Made by a program: the position numbers and the translations under genes. A DNA stretch of 63,641 bases from a virus (taxonomy: Duplodnaviria; Caudoviricetes): positions 1 to 63,641 of IMG/VR virus record IMGVR_UViG_3300036830_000465; one strand, given 5' to 3'. The notes under the pieces are model-generated. The model worked only from the letters and a program-made list of their open reading frames with translations, was not told the DNA's origin and did not search any database. Positions 21-63,404 of the stretch are shown in pieces (position 1 is the first letter of the stretch; the number at the start of each line of letters is the position of its first letter).

Positions 21-779
21 TTATTTCTCGATTGATTTGACGGCGCGCTGCGCTTTCCATCCTGAGTCTCGCAGGTCGGTCCATTCCTTGATCAGCGTCC
101 GCATTCCTTCAACGTTACCATCCATCGACATGTAACGCTTCCCAAGCTGGACGTTTCGGTCGTGATTCGGATTGCCCTCTTCGGTTTCGTGCGAGCGCGG
201 ATGAAACAGGTGGTACACATTCCCATGGACGCGCTCGTTCGCGCCGCGCAATGTTTGCGGGGCTATTCTAAGGGCCCAATCATCTACGCCCCAGTAGTAC
301 AGGCGCTCGTCCAGCCACCCGATCTCATCGAATAGGTCTCGCCGGAACGCCTGGCAATTTGAAAATGTCGGGCCATAGGAACCATACGGAGGTTCGAGTA
401 AGTCGTCGGCCGGTTTCTCCGGAAGCCGCAGCGTGCCAGCCAGCAGCGCATCGGTTGCCGCGCCGTTTAAGGCATAGCGCCAGTCGTGACAATAGACCAT
501 TCTGCCCGTGTCTGCCGCGATCTGGAGGCCTTGCCGGACCTGCAGCACGCCTTGCATGATCACGTCAGAATCGATGATCAGGCAGAGTTCCCAGTTGCCA
601 GCATCGCGCGCCGCGTCATTGACCGCTTCGGCACGGGAGAATCCCCCGATGTTGTGGTGACCTTCGAAAATCTCGAGGTCTGGAAAGTAGTGTTCCCACC
701 AATCGCGGCAGAATCCCCAGAGGCGATCACGGCGGCCGCTGTCTTTGCGGCGGGGAACGAGGATGACGGTTTTCATCAT
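21..779 (-). CDS. GT-A fold glycosyltransferase (GT2/GT7C-like)
   Basis: IIDSDV DxD motif, WGVDD, YHLFH C-terminal motif. Confidence 0.85.
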   Translation of the reverse strand: MMKTVILVPRRKDSGRRDRLWGFCRDWWEHYFPDLEIFEGHHNIGGFSRAEAVNDAARDAGNWELCLIIDSDVIMQGVLQVRQGLQIAADTGRMVYCHDWRYALNGAATDALLAGTLRLPEKPADDLLEPPYGSYGPTFSNCQAFRRDLFDEIGWLDERLYYWGVDDWALRIAPQTLRGANERVHGNVYHLFHPRSHETEEGNPNHDRNVQLGKRYMSMDGNVEGMRTLIKEWTDLRDSGWKAQRAVKSIEK

Positions 780-2827: not shown

Positions 2828-3453
2828 ATCAATCCTGCTTTCTGCGCGAGCGGCGTGTAGCGATCGCGAATTTGACCACAGATCTCCTGATATTGGCGAT
2901 GTTCCAGCTGGTTTCTCGATTGGGGGCGCCAGTTCTGGCGGTAGATCGAGCGCGGCGCAAAGCCGATCGAGGCGCCGGCTGTCCACGATTTCAAATAGAA
3001 AGCCCAGTCCTCGCAGATTCTCCAGTCGTCAAAGCCGCCCAGCCTCAGGAACAACTCTCGCCGGATGAACGCGCCGACGACAATGTAGTTGCCGGTCAGG
3101 AGTGGCCGCGGTTCGATCTCGAATGGTTCCGGCATCGGCGTTTCGTTTGGGCCTTCCGAGAGCACGCGCACCCGGGGCCGCCGAATGTCTCCGGTAGCCT
3201 CCAGCATCCCCTCGATATATTCCGGCTCCAGCTCGTCATCGCCGTCCAGGAAGCATAGCCAGTCGCATTCGGTCATGGCGGCTGCCGCGTTACGGGATTC
3301 CTGAAGCGTGCCGCGGTGAATGCGCAGTATTTCGTCGGGCTGGTGAGTCTGGGTTTGCAGCGAACCCACAGCGCGCCGGGCAAACTCATTCCATATGGAA
3401 CGGTCGCCGAATGTACAGATGAGCACGGCGGTGGTCTCAGAAGCAGATGCCAT
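2824..3453 (-). CDS. GT2 family glycosyltransferase
   Basis: RNAAA, WLCFLDGDD, GGFDD..EDW. Confidence 0.88.
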   Translation of the reverse strand: MASASETTAVLICTFGDRSIWNEFARRAVGSLQTQTHQPDEILRIHRGTLQESRNAAAAMTECDWLCFLDGDDELEPEYIEGMLEATGDIRRPRVRVLSEGPNETPMPEPFEIEPRPLLTGNYIVVGAFIRRELFLRLGGFDDWRICEDWAFYLKSWTAGASIGFAPRSIYRQNWRPQSRNQLEHRQYQEICGQIRDRYTPLAQKAGLI

Positions 3454-28393: not shown

Positions 28394-29183
28394 GGGGCTT
28401 GGCTCCTGCGTGGTTTATGGGTTTTCCGTAGCGGTCAAGGGGTGAGTTTTTGAACGTGTCGAACTTCGAGACGAAGTGCTGGAGGCTGTATTCGTCGAAC
28501 GGGGACGCGAAATAGTTCTCGACCGCGGCTTCCCATCCGGGCGGGGTGGCTGTGGTTTCAATTCCCAGGCGCTTCCGGAGTTTCGCCAGCTGCGGAAAAT
28601 CCCCGGAACGCCAGCCGTAAGGGTTGCCCATTCGGAGTTTGTATGAAGCTGAAAACTGGTCAGCCGCCAAATCCGGCCTCCCGGCGCGTTTTTCAGCCGC
28701 CGGGGATTCCCCTTGCTTCTTTCCCATTTCCCCTTCTTTTGGAAATGGAGATGGAGAGGGAAATGGAGATGGAGATGGAGGGGTTGTCTTTTGCTTAACC
28801 CGGGTGGTTGGTTTTTGGTTAACCAAATTCGGGTTGCCGCCCAAGCTTCCCGCAGCCTTACGGATTTTCCGGAGAGCCTCATCGCGGACCATCCGGCGGT
28901 TCATAATGGCGCCATCCTCCCGGCGAGTTCCGGTACCACTGTCAAGAATGGCTATAATCGACTTACGGCACTGACTCATTGATAAACCTAGGTTATTTGC
29001 GATATCTCTCTCGGTCATCGGCCTGCCGTTGGGCAGCAACAGAACGCCGCGTTCGGGCGAATCGTGCATGATGCAGACCATGTCGAGCCATACACTTCGG
29101 TCGTGCCGCGGCATTGAAAGGACGGCATGATCGTTGCGCCAATCCTGCGGATAAAACTGGAAGGATGGGAACTTGTCATTCAC
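28230..29183 (-). CDS. Replication initiator (YdaU/DUF1376-like)
   Basis: PSFQFYPQDW, NRRMVRD, R.AAG.LGGNP, PSPSP linker. Confidence 0.78.
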   Translation of the reverse strand: MNDKFPSFQFYPQDWRNDHAVLSMPRHDRSVWLDMVCIMHDSPERGVLLLPNGRPMTERDIANNLGLSMSQCRKSIIAILDSGTGTRREDGAIMNRRMVRDEALRKIRKAAGSLGGNPNLVNQKPTTRVKQKTTPPSPSPFPSPSPFPKEGEMGKKQGESPAAEKRAGRPDLAADQFSASYKLRMGNPYGWRSGDFPQLAKLRKRLGIETTATPPGWEAAVENYFASPFDEYSLQHFVSKFDTFKNSPLDRYGKPINHAGAKPHESKTRIEKNIEAAARLCARLDAEDLGSDERGSDGDSPGGLPGAVGVHPGSGVG

Positions 29184-29191
29184 TGAAAATT

Positions 29192-29359
29192 TCAGCCGAA
29201 AATCTTCAGAAAAACTGTGACGGCCGCGAGTAAAAACAGCGCCCCGCCGAGCAGGATCCCCTCGGCCTGATGGAGACGCTTCTGTTCCTTGAGGTATGCC
29301 GGGTCGGCAAAATCCGCGCGCCGGTAGTTGAAATAGTGATTCGGTGTCGGGGTGTGCAT
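29192..29359 (-). CDS. Small membrane protein
   Basis: AAAGGA RBS; C-terminal TM. Confidence 0.5.
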   Translation of the reverse strand: MHTPTPNHYFNYRRADFADPAYLKEQKRLHQAEGILLGGALFLLAAVTVFLKIFG

Positions 29360-29406
29360 GGTTTGTCCTTTCATGGGTTACAATGCCCGCCTTCAGAGGT
29401 GGCAGG

Positions 29407-30537
29407 ATGTCGCTGTATAAACGCGGGCTGGTCTGGTTCTACGATTTCAAATTTGGCGGCCGGCGCCACCGTGGCTCGACGAAAGTCCGCAACCAGGCTA
29501 AAGCGCGGCAGATTGAAGAAAAACTGAAAACCGATCTGGCGCTGGGCAGGGCCGGGTTGCTGCAGTTGAAGCCCGCGCCGCAATTCCGCGTCTTTGCCGG
29601 CGGGAAATTCACCGATCACATTGAGGTCCACCACGCGAACAAGCCGCAGACCGTCAAGTTCTACGCCGAGAAAATCCGCCGGCTGCTCGAGTTCGCGGCG
29701 CTCGCCGATGCCCACCTGAACCAGATTGATGCTGATTTGATCGAGCGCTATGTCCAGTTCCGGGCGAAGAAAGGCCGCAAGCCGGGCGCGATCAACAGGG
29801 AACTGGCGACACTGCGCAAAGGCTTGAATCTCGCCGCGGAATGGAAGCTGCTGGCCCGGCCGCCGAAAATCCGGCTGATGCCCGGGGAGACCGGCAGGGA
29901 TTTCGTTCTGACCTACGCCATGGAAAAGGCTTATCTGGCGGCGGCGCCGAACCCCTTGAATGACGTCGCGGTACTGGGTCTCGATACCGGGCTGCGCCTG
30001 GCTGAAGCCCTGGCGCTGCAGTGGACGGACTTGACGGCAAACCGGGACGGCGACTGGATTTATCTGACGGTGCGCTCGGGCAAGAGTGCCAACGCGCACC
30101 GATCGATTCCGCTGACCGACCGTGGCCGGGCGATGTTGACCGTACGCCGCGAGGTTTTTCCGGATGCGCTCTGGGTCTTTCCCGGGCAGCGGAAAGGGAA
30201 GCACCTGACGGTCTGGGCGCTGGACAATATCCACGCGCAGCTGCGCCGGACGGCGGTCGATGCCGATGGCAAGACCATCTTCCCGCCGGAGTTCGTGATA
30301 CACTCCCTGCGCCATACGTTCGGAACGCGGCTCGGGGAAACCGGCGCCAACCCGTACCAGATCATGAAGTTGATGGGCCACTCCAGCCTGACGGTGAGCC
30401 AGAAGTACGTGCACCCGACTGCGGGGGGATTGGAGGCCGTCATGCGAGGTCTGGAGGCGATGAATCGTTTGGTGGGTGGTGAAACCGTAGAATCTCATGC
30501 GGGTACCCCCACGGTCCGTTCCCGTCCTGGTTCATGA
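29407..30537 (+). CDS. int: Tyrosine integrase
   Basis: TGLR, HSLRH, LMGH, KY catalytic set; N-terminal arm-binding segment. Confidence 0.95.
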   Translation: MSLYKRGLVWFYDFKFGGRRHRGSTKVRNQAKARQIEEKLKTDLALGRAGLLQLKPAPQFRVFAGGKFTDHIEVHHANKPQTVKFYAEKIRRLLEFAALADAHLNQIDADLIERYVQFRAKKGRKPGAINRELATLRKGLNLAAEWKLLARPPKIRLMPGETGRDFVLTYAMEKAYLAAAPNPLNDVAVLGLDTGLRLAEALALQWTDLTANRDGDWIYLTVRSGKSANAHRSIPLTDRGRAMLTVRREVFPDALWVFPGQRKGKHLTVWALDNIHAQLRRTAVDADGKTIFPPEFVIHSLRHTFGTRLGETGANPYQIMKLMGHSSLTVSQKYVHPTAGGLEAVMRGLEAMNRLVGGETVESHAGTPTVRSRPGS

Positions 30538-36398: not shown

Positions 36399-37646
36399 AT
36401 GTCCACAGAAGTCGCGAAGGTCGATCAGGTAAAAATCGAATTATTAAAACCCATCAACGATGAGAACAATGTCCGCGCATTACTGGCTCAGTACCGCAAG
36501 GCATTCGAAGTCGCCGCAGTCAAGCACCTCGACGTCGACCGGCTGCTTCGCGTCGCGCTGATGACAGTATCCCGCAGTTCCGCATTGTTGGAGTGCACCG
36601 CAGCCAGCCTCCTTGGTTCAGTGATGCTGTCGGCCCAATTGGGCCTGGACATTGCGGCCCGCGAAGCATATTTGGTGCCCTTCAAAAACAAATACGGGAA
36701 GCGCGAGTGTCAGCTGATCCCGGATTATCGCGGGATCATGAAGCTGGTCCGGCAGAGCGGAATGGTTTCAAATTTCCGCGCGCGCTGCGTCTACAGGCAA
36801 GACAAGCTCGACATCGAAGAGGGCCTCAACCCGAGATTGGTGCACGTTCAATCCTATGAGCACGACTTCAAGGACGAAGACCTGATCGGCGTGTACACGG
36901 TCGCCGATTTCTGCGGTCCTGATGGTGCCCCTAGCGGCCTGAAGGATTTTCAATTCATGCCAATCGGTGCGATTAAAAGAATTCGCGCACGCAGCAAGGC
37001 CAGTAATGACGGACCGTGGGTGACCGACTTCGCGGAAATGGCGATGAAGACCGGCATCAAGCACCATGCGAAAACGCTGCCGCAGAATATTCAGATTGCC
37101 ACCGCGCTGCAGCTGGACGACCGGGCGACGATGGCACGGCCTCAGAAAATACAGATGTTTGAAGAAAATGGATTGACCACGATCGGCATTGATCCGGTTG
37201 AAGACCGCGACGATGCTCCGGAACGTGCCCGCGGCGTTGTCGACATCAATTCCCTGAAAGCGGGCTCCGAAGAAAACCGCGGCCACGGCAACGACAACCT
37301 CGATCAGGTTGGCAAGGACGCCGGCAAACCTGAGACGAAAACCGATAAAACTGAGACGCTCGACCAGAAACGCGCACGCCAGACCGCCGAAGCTGAGACG
37401 AAGAAGACCTCCCCTGAGAAGGCGGCCGCCTCTGACGGCGCCGATCCGGAAGCCGCGCTAACTCAGGAACAGCAGGAACAGCTGGAGACGGTCCGTCTCA
37501 ACCAGAACGTCGAGCCGCGCACCTGGAATACGTGGATCCGCAAAGCCTTCGATATCAAGTTGAGTTCCCATCTGCGGCAAAAACATTTCCCCCGCTGCCT
37601 CGCCTGGTGCGAAGCGGGAGGTCAGGAGCAACAGGATGCGCAGTAA
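36399..37646 (+). CDS. recT: RecT family recombinase
   Basis: AQLGL, AYLVPF, YRG...LV.QSG, GPWVTDFAEMA.KT. Confidence 0.9.
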   Translation: MSTEVAKVDQVKIELLKPINDENNVRALLAQYRKAFEVAAVKHLDVDRLLRVALMTVSRSSALLECTAASLLGSVMLSAQLGLDIAAREAYLVPFKNKYGKRECQLIPDYRGIMKLVRQSGMVSNFRARCVYRQDKLDIEEGLNPRLVHVQSYEHDFKDEDLIGVYTVADFCGPDGAPSGLKDFQFMPIGAIKRIRARSKASNDGPWVTDFAEMAMKTGIKHHAKTLPQNIQIATALQLDDRATMARPQKIQMFEENGLTTIGIDPVEDRDDAPERARGVVDINSLKAGSEENRGHGNDNLDQVGKDAGKPETKTDKTETLDQKRARQTAEAETKKTSPEKAAASDGADPEAALTQEQQEQLETVRLNQNVEPRTWNTWIRKAFDIKLSSHLRQKHFPRCLAWCEAGGQEQQDAQ

Positions 37647-55401: not shown

Positions 55402-56189
55402 GCCGCCATCCTCACGCCGCGGGACTCTTCGGTGAGGACAAGATCGGCAACGGTGATCCGGCGGTTAACGACCTCTTCGACCGTCGAGGAACTCAAGGTC
55501 ACCACATAGCCCTTGTACACGGCCGGATCCGGAATCAGGAACAGGTAGATCGCATCACCATTGAGCGAGTCTGTGAAATCGGTTAAGGTCTGCGCCTGCG
55601 CGTCGGTCATTTCCTCGAAGGTGAACACGAACTCGAAATATTTCCGGATCTTGTTGACGCTGCGCGCGCCCAGTTCGCTGCGCTTCGAGTTGTTCTCCTG
55701 CACGTGGCGGCGGCGCCAGTCGTAACTGAAGTTGTTATCCAGCGTGACGGCCAGGCCAATCATCAGACGCCCGATGGAATAGGCGTGCGAGGCAGTAATT
55801 GCGTCGACGATGCCGATGGTCAGGTAGCGATCGGTGCGCGTGGAGGCCGTCCGGAAGTACGCATCGATCTCCCGGTACGTCATCGTGTCGGTGTGGTCGA
55901 TCACGCCGGACGTGGTGCCGCTTTTAATGGTGATGACGACGCTCGGATCGAAATCGTGATTGACGAGCATGATCTGGTTCCACGGTGTCGGCGCGCCCAG
56001 ATCGACGGTAATGAGGTTGTTGTAGCCGCCGGTAACGTTCGTCGTGGTATACCGCTGCGAGATGTCGGTGGTCTGCAGGTTGAGCTGCGAACTGCCCGGC
56101 GCCGCGCTGTAGTTCACGCCCCAATTGGTGGCATTGCTCAGCGGCTGAAACAAATCGTCGGTGGATCGCAGGAAGGTGAAGAAGCTCAT
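55398..56189 (-). CDS. Distal tail protein
   Basis: Follows tape measure; L.NH.F, IGRL.IG. Confidence 0.62.
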   Translation of the reverse strand: MSFFTFLRSTDDLFQPLSNATNWGVNYSAAPGSSQLNLQTTDISQRYTTTNVTGGYNNLITVDLGAPTPWNQIMLVNHDFDPSVVITIKSGTTSGVIDHTDTMTYREIDAYFRTASTRTDRYLTIGIVDAITASHAYSIGRLMIGLAVTLDNNFSYDWRRRHVQENNSKRSELGARSVNKIRKYFEFVFTFEEMTDAQAQTLTDFTDSLNGDAIYLFLIPDPAVYKGYVVTLSSSTVEEVVNRRITVADLVLTEESRGVRMAA

Positions 56190-59100
56190 ACGCGCGCGGC
56201 GCTCCCGGCGCGGTTCACGGCTTCCTTGAGCCTGCCATCGGTTTGCAGTCCGCGGATGATTTCTTCTCTGATCTTTCGGCCGGTATCTGCCGGTGAGTCG
56301 GTTGCCGTTCCGTAAACGTGAATGTCGCCAACGGTGATATTGCTTCGGCCGCTATCTCTCGACGATCCCCGGTTCTGCGCCGCCGTGGTGACCCGCTCCC
56401 CCTGGTGCAGGAAATACGCGCCATCCCAAGGCACCCACGGCGTCCCCATCGCGTATTGGGTCAGCGGCGTGCCGACTTCGGTACCATAGCTGACCGTGCC
56501 GTAACCCGGCGAGTAGGTGTTGACGAGGTTTGTGTTGGAGGTATCCGGCGCGACCGTGCGCACGATGCTGTCAATCCAGTTGAGCCAGTTGTTGACAAAC
56601 GGACTTTCTGTAGCGAAGAACTGATCGCCGACCTGCTTGCGGTCGCTGCTGTTGCCCTCCCAGCGGATAACCGCGCCGGTGACATCGCTCCACGCCTGAT
56701 ACATGGCCTGCTGCGCATTGGTGGCCTCGTAGGGCTGAATGGTTCCGGCATCGACGCCGGTGGTCACGGCATTGATGATTCCGGCGAATTGCTGATCGAA
56801 CGGATTCTGGAAGTTTTTAACCAGATCGTTGGCTTCAAAATGCGCCATGGATTTGATCAGGCCGGTGATACCCAGAACCGAACCGGCAACGGCCAGCGTG
56901 ATCGGATTGGTGGCAAAGGCGCCGATGGAAGCAAGAGTTCCGCCGCCAGCAGTTCCGGCGGTAGCCGCGGCGGCGCTCCCAGCACCAACGACGTTATCGG
57001 CGCTGAATCCGGCCTTCGCCAGGGCCGCGCTGTAACCCCCATCTCCACCCAAAGCGTCGAGGAATCCGGCGGTCAATGATGTCAATTTCTCCCGCAGCGG
57101 TCCCAGCGCCGCATCAATGATGGAATTCAGGGTCTTATTGAAAAACGTCTCGAACTCGTTTTGGATCGGCCCGATGAACCAGCCCGCGATTTTCTCTCCG
57201 GCATCTTTCGCGACATTGCCCATCGTGAGGGCGCCCTGATGAAAGTGATCGAAGAAGGTGTCTGTGATGTTGCCCCACGTCAGGGCCTCGCCGTGCAGCG
57301 TGGCGCTGATGCCTTCGATGCTGGTATTGACCGATGCGACGTGCGCCTCATACTGTTTTTGCGCCGCGTCGAGGGCCGCCGTACGCTTCTTCTCGTCCGA
57401 TTCATACTGCGCCGTGGTGACCTGATCGAGCGAGGCCTGGAAGCCCGCGATGAGTTTGTCCTCACCTACCAGAAAGGCAGCATTGGACGCCGACAGGTTT
57501 TTTGAGGCATCGGCAACAGCCTGCATTCCGCTGGTAATCAATTTGGTTTCGTCGTCGAAGAATTTCTCCAGCGAGGCGGCGCTGGTTTTCGCGAGACCGG
57601 TATTGATCTCGCTGATCATGTGGGACCAATCGTTGATCTGCTTGGTGTTGTTATCGAGGAAGGTCTTAAAATCGAACGAACTCGCCAGTGCCTGAACGCT
57701 GGCATTGACCGTGATTCCGGCCGCATGAAATTTGCTCGCCATGTCGGAGGCCTGCTTGCCCATTTCCGGCAGCAGCTGATTCAGCGTTAGTCCGCGGCCT
57801 TGAAGCAAAAGAATCGCGCCGGCCAGGTCTTTTTCCGCGGCCGTGGTGGGAATGACCGACGCGGTAAGACTGGCGACCGCGTCGGCATGCCTTTTCGCCT
57901 CCTCTTCCGCCTGCTTCAATGCGAGAGTAACTTTATCGATTACCGGCGGAACGATGCCATGGGCCTTTATGAAATCCTGAATTTTTGCGGTGTTGTCGCC
58001 AATGCCATCGGAATTCGTCAGTAGGGCATTGCGCATATCCCACAGGTTTGCGGAGGTCTTTAAGATGGAATTTCCGGCATCGGTCAACGTCTTTCCGAGC
58101 CCGGTCTGACCGAGAGCCGTTGCCAGCGTGCCCGCGCCTTGTCCCAGGGCGCCAAGATAGAAAATCAAATCCGCCGTGACACCCAGAACACCAGCAGCCA
58201 AAACATCCTTGTAATGGAGGGCCGCAGTGGTCAGGCCAACGAACGCGAGAATGGAGAGACTGATCGGGTTCGCATCCATTACGAGATTGAGGGCCACCCA
58301 TGCGGTTTTCAGATTCGCAATTCCAACAATCAAACCGCCAGTCCCTAGCAGAACCGCGCCTACTTCGACCGCCGCTCGCGATATATCCAGAAGGGAGGTC
58401 ACGACGTCCGGGTTTTCCTTCGCCCAGTCTTTTACCTGGACAATGGCGTCGGTCGCCGAAGTGATCCATTTCTCCAGAATCGGATAAGCCTCTTCGCCAA
58501 TCGCATGCGACAGGCCCGTAAAACTGAGATGTAAATTGTCGAGCGTGTCTTCGAACTGATTGGCCTTGTCTGCGGCTTCCTTGTCGAAAACAATTCCCAG
58601 CCGGTGCGCCTGATCCGCGAGTTCGGAAATGCCGTCACGCCCGAGATTCAATACGGGAATCATGGCCAACCCGCCGCGGCCAAAGAGTTCGACGGCAAGT
58701 GCGGATTTTTCCGCACCGTCCGCCATGTGAGAAAACTTATCGGCGACGTCCAGAAGAACATCCTGCGTGGGGCGCAGCTGGCCGTTAGCAGAGGTGGCGC
58801 TGATGCCGAGTTTCAGGAACGTATCAGCGGCCGCGCCTCCCTTCGTCTGGGCGTCTTCCATGTGCGTCGCGAGAATCCGCAGCCCGGAGGTCATGGCATC
58901 AAGGGAAGTGCCTTGCTGGCTGGCAACGTAGCCCCACTCGGAAAGCGCAGTCGCGGAAAGACCGGTGCTCTGGTAAAGCGTGTAAATCTGAGACCCGGCC
59001 TTTGATGTCGAGTCCGCCATTTCAAGGAGCGTCCCAATGATCGTCACGCCAGCCCCGGCAATGGCGGCCCCGGACAAAGCGAATGTCGAGCCGACCTGTG

Positions 59101-59254
59101 TCCAACTGACTTCCATCTCCTTTGCCGCGTCGCCAGACTTTTCGCCTAAGTCCTCCGCAGCGTCAGAAGTGCGCTCAATGCCCTGCGCAATCTTCTCGAA
59201 TGTCGAGATGACGCCTTCTTCGTTGATCTTGGTGATGAATTGGATGGTTGGCAA
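56186..59254 (-). CDS. Tape measure protein
   Basis: 1022 aa Ala-rich helical; A.ELFGRGG..M.P.L; YAMGT.WVP.DG..FLHQGERV. Confidence 0.9.
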   Translation of the reverse strand: MPTIQFITKINEEGVISTFEKIAQGIERTSDAAEDLGEKSGDAAKEMEVSWTQVGSTFALSGAAIAGAGVTIIGTLLEMADSTSKAGSQIYTLYQSTGLSATALSEWGYVASQQGTSLDAMTSGLRILATHMEDAQTKGGAAADTFLKLGISATSANGQLRPTQDVLLDVADKFSHMADGAEKSALAVELFGRGGLAMIPVLNLGRDGISELADQAHRLGIVFDKEAADKANQFEDTLDNLHLSFTGLSHAIGEEAYPILEKWITSATDAIVQVKDWAKENPDVVTSLLDISRAAVEVGAVLLGTGGLIVGIANLKTAWVALNLVMDANPISLSILAFVGLTTAALHYKDVLAAGVLGVTADLIFYLGALGQGAGTLATALGQTGLGKTLTDAGNSILKTSANLWDMRNALLTNSDGIGDNTAKIQDFIKAHGIVPPVIDKVTLALKQAEEEAKRHADAVASLTASVIPTTAAEKDLAGAILLLQGRGLTLNQLLPEMGKQASDMASKFHAAGITVNASVQALASSFDFKTFLDNNTKQINDWSHMISEINTGLAKTSAASLEKFFDDETKLITSGMQAVADASKNLSASNAAFLVGEDKLIAGFQASLDQVTTAQYESDEKKRTAALDAAQKQYEAHVASVNTSIEGISATLHGEALTWGNITDTFFDHFHQGALTMGNVAKDAGEKIAGWFIGPIQNEFETFFNKTLNSIIDAALGPLREKLTSLTAGFLDALGGDGGYSAALAKAGFSADNVVGAGSAAAATAGTAGGGTLASIGAFATNPITLAVAGSVLGITGLIKSMAHFEANDLVKNFQNPFDQQFAGIINAVTTGVDAGTIQPYEATNAQQAMYQAWSDVTGAVIRWEGNSSDRKQVGDQFFATESPFVNNWLNWIDSIVRTVAPDTSNTNLVNTYSPGYGTVSYGTEVGTPLTQYAMGTPWVPWDGAYFLHQGERVTTAAQNRGSSRDSGRSNITVGDIHVYGTATDSPADTGRKIREEIIRGLQTDGRLKEAVNRAGSAARV

Positions 59255-60516: not shown

Positions 60517-60810
60517 TTACAGTGGGCGATCCGGACAGCCGGTGCACCCGTCGGGATTCAGCGCAATCAAAGAACACGCTGGCTTCAACGCGGCTATCTT
60601 CTCAGAATTACCCGCCGCCCGCAATACCAACTCGAATCGATGACGTTCCGGACACTGACTGTCGGCCAGAAGCCTGAAGTCGAACACTTTCAGGTGGAGC
60701 GCCCTTCTCTTGCCATCGTACTCGATCGATGCGGAATCCACTTCAATGCGGTGGCCGTTATATTCGATCTCGATCGCATGGCGATTCTTGTCCAGTCTGG
60801 CGGTGATCAT
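60517..60810 (-). CDS. Hypothetical protein (left flank of cassette)
   Basis: ATGA-coupled to the HTH gene. Confidence 0.6.
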   Translation of the reverse strand: MITARLDKNRHAIEIEYNGHRIEVDSASIEYDGKRRALHLKVFDFRLLADSQCPERHRFELVLRAAGNSEKIAALKPACSLIALNPDGCTGCPDRPL

Positions 60811-61070
60811 TTTCTCAATCGTACGCCAGGACCGCCGCCATTCTTCTCAATAAAAATCACTCCAGCTTTTGTGAGCGCCGCACAGATCCGCTCCATTGTG
60901 CCGGATCGCTGGTTTGCCCCTGCGGCTTCAATCATGACGAGAGTTCGCAGTGATACCCCGCACTCTTCCGCCAGTCTATCGCGCGACCAATTCAGAAGTG
61001 CACGCGCCGCCCTGATCTGAGAGGCCGTAATTTCAGTTGCATGTTTTGTGCAATATTCTCTTGACTGCAT
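60807..61070 (-). CDS. XRE HTH regulator of the inverted cassette
   Basis: QIRAARALLNWS...LA...GVS..T...E...GV.FI..NGGGPGVRL; start uncertain. Confidence 0.85.
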   Translation of the reverse strand: MQSREYCTKHATEITASQIRAARALLNWSRDRLAEECGVSLRTLVMIEAAGANQRSGTMERICAALTKAGVIFIEKNGGGPGVRLRK

Positions 61071-61097
61071 CGCGTGCAGTATTGCACGATTCGTGCA
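61037..61097. promoter_or_regulatory. Three TGCA-bounded palindromes (operators) overlapping a TTGACT -35 element
   Basis: TTGCA-N7-TGCAA 61037-53; ACTGCA-N5-TGCAGT 61064-80; TGCACGA-T-TCGTGCA 61083-97. Confidence 0.65.
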
Positions 61098-61135
61098 TCT
61101 GTCAAACGACAGAAAAACACACCAAGGAGAATGCA

Positions 61136-61798
61136 ATGGCAACTACGAAGACCTCGGAAACAAAGTCGGTGGCAATTCCAGCGCCGAGATTCGGAAGGGC
61201 TGAATTCCTGATTGAGGGCACCGCCCCGCTCGTCATCCATCGGTTTTCAGCGAAGACAAAAGAGCAGATGAAACAAAAGATGGAGACCGGCAAGGCCGCC
61301 GGGAGCCGCAAAAACCGTGAGGCCAAACAGACCGATGATCTTTACAAAGAAGCGCGCTATATCAGCAAGGAAGGCTGGGACGGGTTTCACGCCGGAGCCG
61401 TGCGCAACGCTCTCATTTCAGCGTGCCGCCTTGTCGGCTTCAAAATGACGCTCGCTAAACTCTCGCTATTCGTCGAGGCCGATGGGCGCGATGCGGAAGA
61501 GCCCCAGATTCCACTCGTTCGAATCATCGGAAAATGCGTCAAGCAGGAAGATATGGCCAGGGTCGAAACCGGACAGCCTTACGTCACAGTTCGGGCGGCG
61601 TTCCATGAATGGAAGGCTAAGATCCGGCTGCGCTGGGACGAGGATCAGTTCACACTACAAGACGTTACCAATCTTCTCTCGCGAGTTGGAATGCAGGTCG
61701 GCCTGTGTGAGGGGCGCCCCGATTCTCCGAATTCTGCAGGAATGGGATGGGGCTTGTTTGAGATTTCCAAAACCGAACCAAGAAAGGCGACAGCGTGA
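61136..61798 (+). CDS. RAMP/Cas7-like protein (putative RNA-guided effector)
   Basis: IEGTAPLVIH first strand, A.AVRNAL..A helix, C-terminal Gly-rich loop VGLCEGRP....GMGWGLF; AAGGAG RBS. Confidence 0.6.
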   Translation: MATTKTSETKSVAIPAPRFGRAEFLIEGTAPLVIHRFSAKTKEQMKQKMETGKAAGSRKNREAKQTDDLYKEARYISKEGWDGFHAGAVRNALISACRLVGFKMTLAKLSLFVEADGRDAEEPQIPLVRIIGKCVKQEDMARVETGQPYVTVRAAFHEWKAKIRLRWDEDQFTLQDVTNLLSRVGMQVGLCEGRPDSPNSAGMGWGLFEISKTEPRKATA

Positions 61799-62235
61799 CA
61801 AATCAGAAAATCATTTCGGAGCTTCGGCGCATCGCGAAAAAGCACGATGGCCTATTGAATCCATCGGACGTTGTCGAAGAGGCTCGCTCGAAATCTTCGC
61901 CGCTGCATGGAAAGTTCGAGTGGGACGATTCCGCGGCTGCGGAGCGTTACCGGCTCTGGCAGGCCCGTCAGCTTATCTCGGTTACCGTCGAATATGTCGG
62001 CGGCAATAAGGACGGCGTTCTTTCCAGAGTATTCGTAAGCCTCAGTTCGGACCGCAAAGAAGAGGGTGGCTACCGGACGATTGAAGCTGTCATGTCGAGG
62101 CAGGGAAGCCGCGAACGATTGCTTCAGGATGCGCTGGACGATATGCAGACATTCAGGGATCGTTATTCGGCGCTCAAGGAATTGGCCGGCGTCTTTGCGG
62201 CGATGCGCAAAGTCAGGGGCAAAGCAGCGGCATAG
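61795..62235 (+). CDS. Conserved partner protein of the RAMP-like gene
   Basis: GTGA-coupled; L.P..VV..AR...SPLH..FEWDD..AA..YRL.QAR.LI. Confidence 0.75.
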   Translation: MTNQKIISELRRIAKKHDGLLNPSDVVEEARSKSSPLHGKFEWDDSAAAERYRLWQARQLISVTVEYVGGNKDGVLSRVFVSLSSDRKEEGGYRTIEAVMSRQGSRERLLQDALDDMQTFRDRYSALKELAGVFAAMRKVRGKAAA

Positions 62236-62244
62236 AGACTCTTT

Positions 62245-62570
62245 GGCGTGGATGGGCAGGTGGGGTCGTGCACGAAATGGCCTGTGGCGGCTGGGAGAGC
62301 TAAGGATGGGAATGGCTCTGCAGGTTAGGCGAGTCGGGTCAATGTCGGGACGGGAGTGTTCTGGTGTGGATTGTTAAGGCGCGGCAGGTCAGGTCAGGAA
62401 TGTTCAGGTGCGGCCGGGGTAGGCTGGTGAGGCCTGGGGTGGCAGGACAGGCGAGGTACGGATTGGACTGGATGGCCCAGGAGTGGAAAGTTTCTGTAGG
62501 GCAGGCAAGGTGCGGTATGGAAAGTCGGGGCGGGAAGCGTCGCGGGTAGGTAAGACGCGGCAGGCAAGTC
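62245..62570 (+). repeat. 5-nt periodic GGNNN array in GGCA-delimited units (putative guide ncRNA)
   Basis: (G/T)GCAGG at 62255, 62319, 62383, 62441, 62500, 62559; 39 of 56 pentamers start with GG and 53 of 56 with G. Confidence 0.85.
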
Positions 62571-63404
62571 TTAGCTTCCGAGAATGGGGACTGGATCAAG
62601 CACCAGCTCCCCCATTCTGTCCTCGCGAAAATAGAAGTAACGCTCGAACCAATCGCGCAAGGCGGGCTCACCGCCGCGTTCGTAGGCCGCATAGTAGCTT
62701 CGCCAGTGCGCCCCCTCGTGTTCTGGAAGATTCGCCACCCGGTAAGCCAATCCGCCGTTGATCGATTTTTTTATGAAATGCTCGGCGCTTCTGTAGGGAA
62801 AGTGTGCGATGCGCAGCGCCGTCGTTTTCTTCGTTTGAAGAAGGCTCCCATCCGCATTCAGCGCGCTGTGATTGCCTTGCTGGACGGTCATCCCTGGGCT
62901 TGCGCGGAATATAACTTTCGGTAACACGTTCGGCGGCTTGTGCCGATGCTGGATGCGGAGGAAGGGATTCGCGTTCTCCTTGTCCATGTGACAAGGAAAG
63001 TAGTTGGCCATCGGAATTTCGAAACCGCGAACGTCGTCTTCCATTTCGAAGGACCGGAGATAGTCGCTGAAGGTTTCGCCGGTGTTGCAGATTAATAACT
63101 CGTCGGCATCGAATGGCACCAGCCAGGGGCGCTCGACGCCGGATAACTCGATTGCCCTGCCCACGAGAGATGTCATCTTCTGGCTCTGGTAGTAGCCCCG
63201 CTCCGGATCGTCGATAAGAATGATTGGGATGCCCGCCGATTTCTGAATGGTGGAAATCTGATAGCGCGTGCTGTCGGATGAGGCATTATCCGCAATGATG
63301 ATGCCGTCCACGCCGGAGGCGATGAGATGGAGTAGGGTGAAGGAAATGATGTCGGCTTCGTCCTTTACCATTCCAACAGCCCAGACCTGCGGAGCCTTGC
63401 TCAC
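62571..63404 (-). CDS. GT2-like glycosyltransferase (right flank of cassette)
   Basis: MVKDEADII, IADN.SSDST, WLVPFDADE, HFPYRS. Confidence 0.88.
   Translation of the reverse strand: MSKAPQVWAVGMVKDEADIISFTLLHLIASGVDGIIIADNASSDSTRYQISTIQKSAGIPIILIDDPERGYYQSQKMTSLVGRAIELSGVERPWLVPFDADELLICNTGETFSDYLRSFEMEDDVRGFEIPMANYFPCHMDKENANPFLRIQHRHKPPNVLPKVIFRASPGMTVQQGNHSALNADGSLLQTKKTTALRIAHFPYRSAEHFIKKSINGGLAYRVANLPEHEGAHWRSYYAAYERGGEPALRDWFERYFYFREDRMGELVLDPVPILGS

What the first reader, a model, noticed from the sequence alone, without database searches (positions are those of the whole stretch)
60807..62570. Candidate RNA-guided system: HTH, RAMP/Cas7-like gene, partner gene and pentamer array
Seen: a 1.76 kb cassette whose two main genes and array run against the late operon, with a divergent HTH and three palindromic operators. 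It holds a 220-aa protein with a C-terminal Gly-rich loop, a coupled 146-aa protein, and a non-coding array that starts ~10 nt after the stop and ends flush with the neighbouring GT stop. No cas1/cas2, CRISPR repeats or obvious nuclease are present. Established: RAMP/Cas7 subunits polymerise on guide RNA with a fixed nucleotide step. Inference: the protein coats array-derived RNAs at one subunit per 5 nt. From memory this resembles recently reported phage RAMP systems with GGY/NN repeats (VIPR); verify before claiming novelty.
Basis: partly seen in the sequence, partly recalled or inferred. Interest (0 to 1): 0.93.

Follow-up and report, generated by a model that had tools for sequence, protein, structure and literature searches.

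The report
Phage VIPR locus, staggered guide array
This is a phage copy of the recently described VIPR RNA-guided silencing system: a small Cas7-like protein, a partner protein and a tail-less array of five-base guide repeats, so it is a new member of a known kind, not a new kind.

Summary
At 61136-62570 (+) there is a 220-aa gene, a 146-aa gene overlapping it by GTGA, and 9 nt later a 326-nt non-coding tract (62245-62570). The tract parses into 67 five-base steps (G1 63/67, G2 52/67, G at position 3 only 4/67). It falls into blocks of 59-64 nt, each closed by a 4-nt GGCA-type step. It is the top-scoring tract of this kind in the window: score 94.7 against 12.3 for the next best.

Among 26 homolog loci, 25 carry same-strand pentamer arrays. 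These include cultured Mycobacterium and Gordonia phages and a cyanophage.

It is not type II: there is no 3' tail, the Vap is unrelated to vap1, and the G-loop differs.

The divergent HTH with three clustered palindromes is real, but it is absent from the homolog loci and is probably a local regulator.

No natural target was found, and no expression data were available.

Verdict: a new member of a known kind, of modest interest.

The parts
60807..61070 (-). XRE-type HTH regulator gene, 87 aa from the ATG at 61070 (the open frame runs on to a TTG at 61142). Probably local to this locus and not a conserved VIPR component.
   Evidence: Pfam HTH_3 at 5.4e-7. PADLOC control-protein/HTH models at about 4e-5. 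No homolog in 26 related loci or in two actinophage loci.
61038..61097 (.). Three palindromes of the form TGCA-N5-7-TGCA (61038-52, 61066-78, 61083-97) lie in the divergent intergenic region. They are candidate operators. A minus-strand promoter-like site (TTGACA-16-AATACT, 61105..61078) points at the HTH gene.
   Evidence: These are the only 3 matches in the 63.6-kb window, and all sit within 60 nt. A promoter consensus match is present. An inverted repeat is reported. Binding by the HTH is inferred.
61136..61798 (+). vipr: a 220-aa minimal RAMP with a single RRM, a thumb hairpin (about residues 135-156, R153) and a long Gly-rich loop (189-207, GLCEGRPDSPNSAGMGWG).
61795..62235 (+). vap-like accessory gene, 146 aa and translationally coupled. 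The N-terminal half has helix-helix-helix-strand-strand topology (winged-helix-like, weak evidence). The C-terminal part is a helical hairpin.
62245..62570 (+). Staggered vrRNA array of 67 GG(H)NN steps. Blocks are 62245-58, 62259-322, 62323-386, 62387-425, 62426-444, 62445-503, 62504-562 and 62563-570. Each block is closed by a 4-nt step (GGCA five times, TGCA once, GGCT once), so that the next block starts one base out of register.
   Evidence: The same architecture appears in homolog loci. No Rfam family reaches its gathering score. GC skew is 0.50.

Best explanation
The cassette is a VIPR (Viral Interference Programmable Repeat) system carried by a temperate phage.

The proposed mechanism has five steps:
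1. vipr, vap and the array are transcribed together from the divergent intergenic promoter region.
2. Vipr protomers coat the array transcript, one protomer per five-base step. They sequester G1, G2 and the third base and expose the two variable bases.
3. A 4-nt GGCA step every 12-13 steps breaks the register. This delimits five to six tail-less guide RNAs of about 59-64 nt, a 'staggered' array.
4. Each Vipr-vrRNA filament reads double-stranded DNA by pairing two bases and skipping one. It silences genes of a competing phage or other mobile element, and the Vap protein helps at the DNA.
5. The neighbouring HTH probably sets when the operon is on.

**What is shown and what is not**
- Shown here: the fold, the homology to a solved Vipr, the array and its recurrence beside homologs.
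- Taken from the preprints: the stoichiometry, the skip rule and silencing.
- Inferred: co-transcription, the register slip as the unit boundary, and the HTH's role.
For: **Protein**
- The RAMP fold is predicted at high confidence.
- All listed top structural matches are CRISPR type III/VII effector entries (Csm/Cmr, Cas7 or Cas7-11).
- The only significant PDB sequence match is SUSP1 Vipr: E 0.042 with the single sequence and 3.4e-6 with an 85-sequence profile. hhalign gives 95.3%.
- Residues aligned to SUSP1's RNA contacts (named in 10.64898/2026.04.26.720927, section read):
  - R138 aligns to R153, present in 81/85 family sequences.
  - D177 aligns to E192, present in 62/85.
  - R179 aligns to R194, present in 85/85.

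**Array**
- It is on the same strand as the genes and starts 9 nt after vap.

**Recurrence**
- 25 of 26 homolog loci have a same-strand array scoring 50 or more beside vipr/vap.
- Crisp examples are L011 (blocks of 9, 9, 10, 9 and 12 steps), L005 (14, 15) and L017 (12, 10, 9).
- Across the clade, 130 of 236 four-nt steps are GGCA and 182 of 236 are NGCA.
- The preprint's legend of fig. S18 describes staggered arrays in which vrRNAs derive from 1-nt overlapping positions.
- As a positive control, the detector finds arrays on both sides of SUSP1 vipr.

**Context**
- The window is an IMG/VR virus record with a tyrosine integrase.
- It has no Cas1 and no CRISPR-like repeats.
- No self-target scores above shuffled guides, as the preprint reports for its own systems.
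Against: - No expression or processing data exist for this locus.
- The array is degenerate. G2 is missing in 15 of 67 steps and position 3 is a purine in 21 of 67. In SUSP1 the position-3 pocket excludes purines.
- SUSP1's stacking Trp178 aligns with an invariant Gly (G193, 85/85). Homology to SUSP1 Vipr covers only 63 columns.
- H35 aligned to H17 rests on an insignificant alignment stretch, and His is found in only 33/85 family sequences.
- The Vap fold assignment is weak, and the Vap is unrelated to the one tested Vap.
- No natural target was found. All-against-all guide matching in the local set equals the shuffled controls, apart from one hit.
- According to the preprint, small-RNA sequencing confirmed the ribozyme-interspersed and single-vrRNA forms. 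It does not say this of the staggered arrays.
Confidence: 0.88

Rival explanations
1. The locus is a decaying relic. The vipr and vap genes are intact, but the array has drifted so far that few or none of its blocks still give working guides.
For: - G2 is 78% and Y3 is 69% here, against 94-100% in crisp relatives such as L009, L011, L017 and L021.
- One block is split by an extra 4-nt step (39 + 19 nt).
- No target was found for any block.
- The G-loop motif is the same in loci with crisp and with degenerate arrays, so a changed protein specificity does not explain the degeneracy.
Against: - G1 is kept in 63/67 steps, and the register holds over 326 nt with boundary steps at regular intervals of 59-64 nt.
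- Several relatives are equally degenerate: L007, L015/L016, L018 and L025.
- Both genes are open and conserved.
Confidence: 0.15
2. The RAMP-like protein and array form a ribonucleoprotein that acts on RNA, or has some role other than silencing double-stranded DNA. Examples are type-III-like transcript binding or a packaging or regulatory RNP of the phage itself.
For: - The closest solved folds are RNA-targeting Csm3/Cmr4/Cas7-11 subunits.
- This clade differs from the tested type II in its G-loop, Vap and array form.
- No DNA target was found.
Against: - Homology to SUSP1 Vipr is specific.
- The repeat grammar is the one shown to read dsDNA.
- No nuclease or Cas10-like partner is present.
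Confidence: 0.05
3. The G-rich tract is unrelated to the two genes. It would be a short protein-coding stretch, a G-quadruplex-forming DNA element, or a chance compositional feature.
For: - Small ORFs overlap the tract (62364-62549 +, 61 aa; 62339-62692 -, 117 aa).
- The equivalent tract in phage Donkeykong is annotated as a CDS.
- GG runs spaced by 3 nt could form two-tetrad quadruplexes (my inference).
Against: - The conserved feature is a 5-nt phase with 4-nt slips, which is incompatible with a reading frame.
- It scores far above shuffles and above the rest of the window.
- The same kind of tract accompanies the protein in 25 of 26 loci while its variable dinucleotides differ.
Confidence: 0.02

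Closest known systems
VIPR systems with 'staggered' vrRNA arrays (bioRxiv 10.64898/2026.04.26.720920; Results, three Methods sections and passages of supplementary figure legends read)
   Same: - A minimal RAMP gene plus one accessory gene, with no cas genes and no CRISPR array.
- Viral context.
- Tandem GG(Y)NN pentamers on the gene strand.
- Units that follow one another directly with a one-base overlap.
   Different: - Position 3 is relaxed here: A in 17 and G in 4 of 67 steps.
- I could not assign the locus to one of the seven types. The type tree, tables and figures are in supplements or images that were not available.
- The preprint does not list staggered arrays among the forms confirmed by small-RNA sequencing.
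Type II VIPR of Escherichia phage SUSP1 (NC_028808.2; PDB 36pp)
   Same: - Gene order is vipr then a 146-aa vap, with arrays in the flanking non-coding DNA.
- The thumb Arg and the G-loop acidic-x-Arg motif are homologous.
   Different: - SUSP1 vrRNAs are separate units of about 100 nt, each with GGT-rich repeats and a structured 3' tail. Here there is no tail and no spacer between units.
- The G-loop here carries an 8-residue insertion, and Gly replaces Trp178.
- The Vap shows no detectable similarity to vap1.
CRISPR type III/VII Cas7-family backbone subunits (Csm3, Cmr4, Cas7-11 domains)
   Different: - Sequence identity is 6-16%.
- There is no CRISPR array, Cas1, Cas10 or other cas gene.
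- The step is 5 nt on a repeat-only RNA, not 6 nt on a spacer.
TIGR-Tas (PMC12045711; search listing and abstract only)
   Same: It is a phage-borne RNA-guided system with a compact tandem guide array and no adaptation genes.
   Different: The effector is a Nop-domain protein and the array period is 18 nt (period as quoted in 10.64898/2026.10.21.760802). The proteins are unrelated.

Membership tests
VIPR | Sequence homology to an established Vipr | tested here: met
   PDB 36pp_D 'SUSP1 Vipr protein' is the only significant hit, at profile E 3.4e-6. hhalign against SUSP1 28474-29061(-) gives probability 95.3% and E 2.3e-8, but over only 63 columns.
VIPR | RNA-contact residues of SUSP1 Vipr (H17, R138, D177, W178, R179) | tested here: inconclusive
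   R153, E192 and R194 align and are conserved (81/85, 62/85, 85/85). W178 aligns to an invariant Gly. H35 aligns to H17 only in an insignificant stretch and is His in 33/85 sequences.
VIPR | Adjacent same-strand array of tandem GGY/NN (or related NNNGG-type) pentamers, at least 4 units | tested here: met
   The array has 67 steps with G1 63/67, G2 52/67 and position-3 Y 46/67. It is unique in the window. 25 of 26 homolog loci also carry one.
VIPR | Accessory vap gene next to vipr | tested here: met
   A coupled 146-aa gene is conserved next to vipr in 17 of 26 loci and in two actinophages. Which of vap1-6 it is could not be determined.
VIPR | No CRISPR array or adaptation genes; viral or proviral genome | tested here: met
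VIPR | vrRNAs expressed and co-purifying with Vipr | not testable with these tools
   No sequencing run could be listed for the locus.
VIPR | Guides match natural DNA targets by the one-base-skip rule | tested here: inconclusive
   The only lead is block 62387-62426, which matches 15/16 bases at L011/L012:198-221 with the skip bases on codon third positions. All collection scans were empty or chance-like.
VIPR type II (SUSP1 / P. fulva clade) | Each vrRNA ends in a conserved structured 3' tail; accessory gene is vap1 | tested here: not met
   No spacer or tail lies between blocks, whereas SUSP1 has them. hhalign of the Vap against vap1 gives probability 0.65%.
CRISPR-Cas type III (Csm3/Cmr4 Cas7) | Encoded with a CRISPR array and other cas genes (Cas10, small subunit, Cas6) | tested here: not met
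   There are no CRISPR-like repeats and no Cas1. PADLOC, Pfam and NCBIfam give no cas assignment to the cassette proteins.

The most novel reading that the evidence does not exclude
In this large, tail-less clade the only thing that separates one guide from the next is a one-base register slip, the 4-nt GGCA step. The Vipr filament itself would then act as the ruler that sets guide length and the processing sites, with no ribozyme, no hairpin handle and no dedicated nuclease. In addition, the cassette would be an autonomous 'moron' inside the tail-gene module, switched by its own HTH repressor and so expressed from the prophage. Neither point is shown in the text I could read. Cultured M. smegmatis and Gordonia phages with the same layout would make both points testable.
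Probability: 0.35. Interest if true: 0.45.

Novelty: new member of a known kind. Interest (0 to 1): 0.3.

Why it matters
The result files a striking-looking locus under a system first posted in April 2026. The novelty claim therefore falls away.

**What it adds is practical**
- The Vipr clade found here is very large: 5481 database proteins at E<=1e-3 and 1998 clusters at 50% identity.
- The clade consistently uses the staggered, tail-less array form.
- The preprint reports small-RNA sequencing for the ribozyme-interspersed and single-vrRNA forms but not for this one.
- The clade includes cultured, genetically tractable phages of Mycobacterium smegmatis and Gordonia terrae.
- In at least one of these phages the array is annotated as a protein-coding gene.

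**Open questions that could be tested there**
- How tail-less guides are cut and measured.
- Whether a purine at repeat position 3 is tolerated.

Tried and rejected
**Periodicity and repeat tools**
- Global period-5 Fourier power of G is not exceptional, because of the phase slips.
- Tandem Repeats Finder misses the array.
- No Rfam family reaches its gathering score. The best are CPEB3_ribozyme at 18.1 bits and mir-363 at 17.9 bits, both far below their cut-offs.

**Family libraries**
- Pfam, NCBIfam and PADLOC give nothing meaningful for Vipr or Vap.
- The ESM Atlas lists only unnamed viral clusters for Vap.

**Vap fold**
- Foldseek finds nothing at E<=1e-3.
- The winged-helix reading therefore stays a hint.

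**Self-targets**
- None scores above shuffled guides.

**The one target lead**
- Block 62387-62426 matches 15/16 bases at L011/L012:198-221.
- Its estimated chance is about 0.005 for this block's search alone.
- It loses weight in the all-against-all test of 188 guides, where the distribution equals the shuffles and one shuffle reached 2 mismatches.

**Exact-pattern scans for targets**

| Guide scanned | Collection | Result |
|---|---|---|
| Block 62387-62426 | IMG/VR | 14 scattered hits in unrelated contigs, about the chance number |
| Blocks 62445- and 62504-, 10 steps each | IMG/VR | 0 hits each |
| Block 62445-, 10 steps | genome contigs | 0 hits |
| Block 62445-, 10 steps | metagenome contigs | 1 hit in an AT-rich contig with almost no ORFs and no extension; rejected as chance |
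| Blocks 62259- and 62323-, 8-step seeds | IMG/VR | 7 and 10 hits; extensions match 1-5 of 10 bases, as expected by chance |
| Two crisp guides from relatives L005 and L024 | IMG/VR | 0 hits each |

These scans accept exact matches only, so a target with a few mismatches would be missed.

**Other**
- Repeat position 3 does not covary with the G-loop sequence.
- Sequencing runs: none was listed.
- A VIPR type (I-VII) could not be assigned from the text available.
Full report
**What is there**

The last 2.8 kb of the window holds a compact cassette on the plus strand, set against minus-strand genes on both sides. Those include the 1022-aa ORF at 56186-59254 (a length typical of a tape measure protein, my reading) and a GT2 glycosyltransferase at 62571-63404.

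The cassette consists of:
- a 220-aa gene at 61136-61798, with a good ribosome-binding site;
- a 146-aa gene at 61795-62235, whose GTG start overlaps the upstream TGA stop;
- a 326-nt G-rich non-coding tract at 62245-62570, starting 9 nt later and ending at the base before the stop of the convergent GT2 gene.

Upstream and divergent is an XRE-type HTH gene (Pfam HTH_3, 5.4e-7), most likely starting at the ATG at 61070. The 65-nt gap between the two genes and the first bases of the HTH gene hold three TGCA-N5-7-TGCA palindromes. These are the only three matches in the whole window and all sit within 60 nt. A minus-strand promoter-like site points at the HTH gene.

**The array**

Read in fives, the tract looks only loosely periodic. 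Its global period-5 signal is unremarkable and Tandem Repeats Finder does not report it. The reason is that the phase slips by one base at intervals.

Once a 4-nt step is allowed, the tract parses into 67 consecutive steps:
- Position 1 is G in 63, and position 2 is G in 52.
- Position 3 is almost never G (4 of 67; A 17, C 27, T 19).
- Positions 4-5 are mixed.
- Blocks are 14, 64, 64, 39, 19, 59, 59 and 8 nt long.
- Each block closes with GGCA (five times), TGCA or GGCT, followed directly by GG.

A chain detector scores this tract 94.7, against 12.3 for the next best tract on either strand. Scored on the array alone it gives 63.3, against a maximum of 12.8 in 300 dinucleotide shuffles. I set the detector's emission values after seeing the array, so the margin matters more than the exact number.

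**The 220-aa protein**

No Pfam, NCBIfam or PADLOC model covers it. It matches only an unnamed PHROG, phrog_4652.

The family is very large:
- 5481 proteins at E<=1e-3 among 5700 candidates, none with a Pfam domain among the 120 listed;
- 1998 clusters at 50% identity.

By sequence, the only PDB match is 36pp_D, 'SUSP1 Vipr protein':
- E 0.042 with the single sequence;
- E 3.4e-6 with the profile.

I fetched phage SUSP1. hhalign of the family profile against its 195-aa gene next to the arrays gives probability 95.3% and E 2.3e-8 over 63 columns, covering the thumb, the last RRM helix, the G-loop and the final strand.

Three of the SUSP1 residues that the cryo-EM preprint names as RNA contacts align with conserved residues here:
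- R138 with R153;
- D177 with E192;
- R179 with R194.

Trp178 aligns with an invariant Gly. The G-loop here also carries an 8-residue insertion that includes a conserved aromatic residue (W205, 62/85).

**Relatives carry the same thing**

I examined 25 IMG/VR loci (48-79% identity) and cyanophage Cy-LDV1 (54%). Of these 26 loci, 25 have a same-strand pentamer array scoring 50 or more beside the gene. The array lies downstream of vap, upstream of vipr, or on both sides. The one exception is a contig that ends 779 nt after the gene.

Many of these arrays are crisp GGC/GGT-NN runs of 9-16 steps, separated by the same GGCA step. Across the clade, 130 of 236 four-nt steps are GGCA.

Cultured actinophages have it too:
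- In Gordonia phage ODay a 34-step array fills the gap after the homolog.
- In Mycobacterium phage Donkeykong a 71-step array lies inside an annotated CDS just upstream of the homolog.

The 146-aa partner follows the gene in 17 of 26 loci and in both actinophages.

**What it is**

These are the defining features of VIPR systems as described in bioRxiv 10.64898/2026.04.26.720920. I read its Results, three Methods sections and passages of the supplementary figure legends. The features are:
- a minimal RAMP (Vipr);
- one accessory gene (vap);
- no cas genes or CRISPR array;
- a viral location;
- vrRNAs made of GGY/NN pentamers.

That preprint lists 'staggered arrays with overlapping vrRNAs', in which vrRNAs derive from 1-nt overlapping positions. 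This is exactly the GGCA|GG architecture seen here.

Two preprints give the mechanism I adopt by homology:
- 10.64898/2026.04.26.720927 (abstract and one section read);
- 10.64898/2026.10.15.759431 (passages read).

The mechanism has three parts:
- one protomer per repeat, with GGY sequestered and NN exposed;
- dsDNA read with every third base skipped;
- silencing of competing phages and satellites, with Vap required in SUSP1.

A further preprint, 10.64898/2026.10.21.760802 (passages read), reports 99 period-5 clusters, including non-canonical motifs. A relaxed third position is therefore not new either.

**How it differs from the studied type II**
- There is no structured 3' tail and no spacer between units.
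- The Vap is unrelated to vap1.
- The G-loop is different.
- Which of the seven types this is I cannot say. The tree, tables and figures that define them are in supplements or images I could not see.

**The Vap**

**The HTH**

The HTH gene and its clustered palindromes are real. The gene has no homolog in any of the 26 related loci or in the two actinophage loci. None of 10 upstream neighbours examined has an HTH domain; they include an HNH endonuclease, a DNA methylase, an integrase and unknowns.

ODay does have two HTH genes at the same place. There the cassette is inserted between the tail assembly chaperone and the tape measure gene, much as in this window. I read the HTH as a local switch of an autonomous cassette, not as a VIPR component. 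This reading is an inference.

**Targets**

I applied the one-base-skip rule to the window's blocks.
- No self-target scores above shuffled guides.
- One lead emerged. Block 62387-62426 matches 15 of 16 bases in a 108-aa CxxC-containing ORF of two related phage contigs (L011/L012:198-221). All skip bases fall on codon third positions.
- The lead is weak. In an all-against-all test of 188 guides, the hit distribution otherwise equals the shuffled controls.
- Exact-pattern scans of IMG/VR, the genome collection and the metagenome collection were empty or chance-like.
- These scans cannot see targets with mismatches, so the negative result says little.

**Array quality**

The window's array is at the degenerate end of the clade: G2 78%, Y3 69%, A3 25%. 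Several relatives are similar, and one has A at position 3 in 53% of steps. The G-loop motif is the same across loci with crisp and with degenerate arrays. Either the clade tolerates such steps or some arrays are decaying. I give the relic reading 0.15.

**Context and verdict**

The window is a whole IMG/VR virus record, estimated 68% complete. It has a tyrosine integrase, no Cas1 and no CRISPR-like repeats.

The finding is a correct observation with a correct interpretation, of a system that is already described. It is a new member of a known kind. The remaining interest lies in the untested staggered architecture and in the cultured relatives where it could be studied.

Noticed in passing
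L043:1953-2302 (Mycobacterium phage Donkeykong NC_051648.1, record about 36885-37234): A crisp 71-step staggered GGC-NN array lies inside the annotated CDS gp48 ('hypothetical protein', L043:1938-2324). It sits directly upstream of the Vipr homolog gp49 and the Vap homolog gp50. The annotated gene is probably the guide array. 27 Mycobacterium phage records carry the homolog.
   Followed up: partly
L044:1614-4155 (Gordonia phage ODay MW534375.1): A cassette is inserted between the tail assembly chaperone and the tape measure gene. It holds two HTH genes (gp17 on the minus strand, gp18 on the plus strand), the Vipr homolog gp19, a 34-step array at 3083-3248 in the gp19-gp20 gap, and the Vap homolog gp20. 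This is the same 'moron in the tail module' layout as in the window.
   Followed up: partly
L018:2272-2677 (minus strand); L015/L016:2755-2847: Some relatives carry a second pentamer array on the opposite strand upstream of vipr. The score is 98.7 in L018 and about 29 in L015/L016. These would be divergently transcribed arrays.
   Followed up: no
L011/L012:198-221, within ORF 93-419 (-): A 108-aa CxxC...CxxC protein gene of a related, VIPR-bearing phage matches window block 62387-62426 at 15 of 16 variable bases, with the skip bases on codon third positions. It is a possible natural target, but statistically weak.
   Followed up: partly
window 29344-30537 (+): A tyrosine integrase (PF00589, 72.8 bits) is present, so the phage is temperate or the record derives from a prophage.
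   Followed up: no
window 28740-28777: A short tandem repeat is present: TGGAAATGGAGATGGAGAGG, two copies with 18-nt spacing. It is the only direct repeat of 20 nt or more within 120 nt found in the window.
   Followed up: no
L003, L004, L009, L011 (for example L011:3413-4057): In several relatives the space between vipr and the array holds no homolog of this Vap, by tblastn or by profile search. It holds another ORF instead (214 aa in L011). In L021 and L022 the array follows vipr directly. The accessory gene is therefore interchangeable or dispensable within one Vipr clade.
   Followed up: partly
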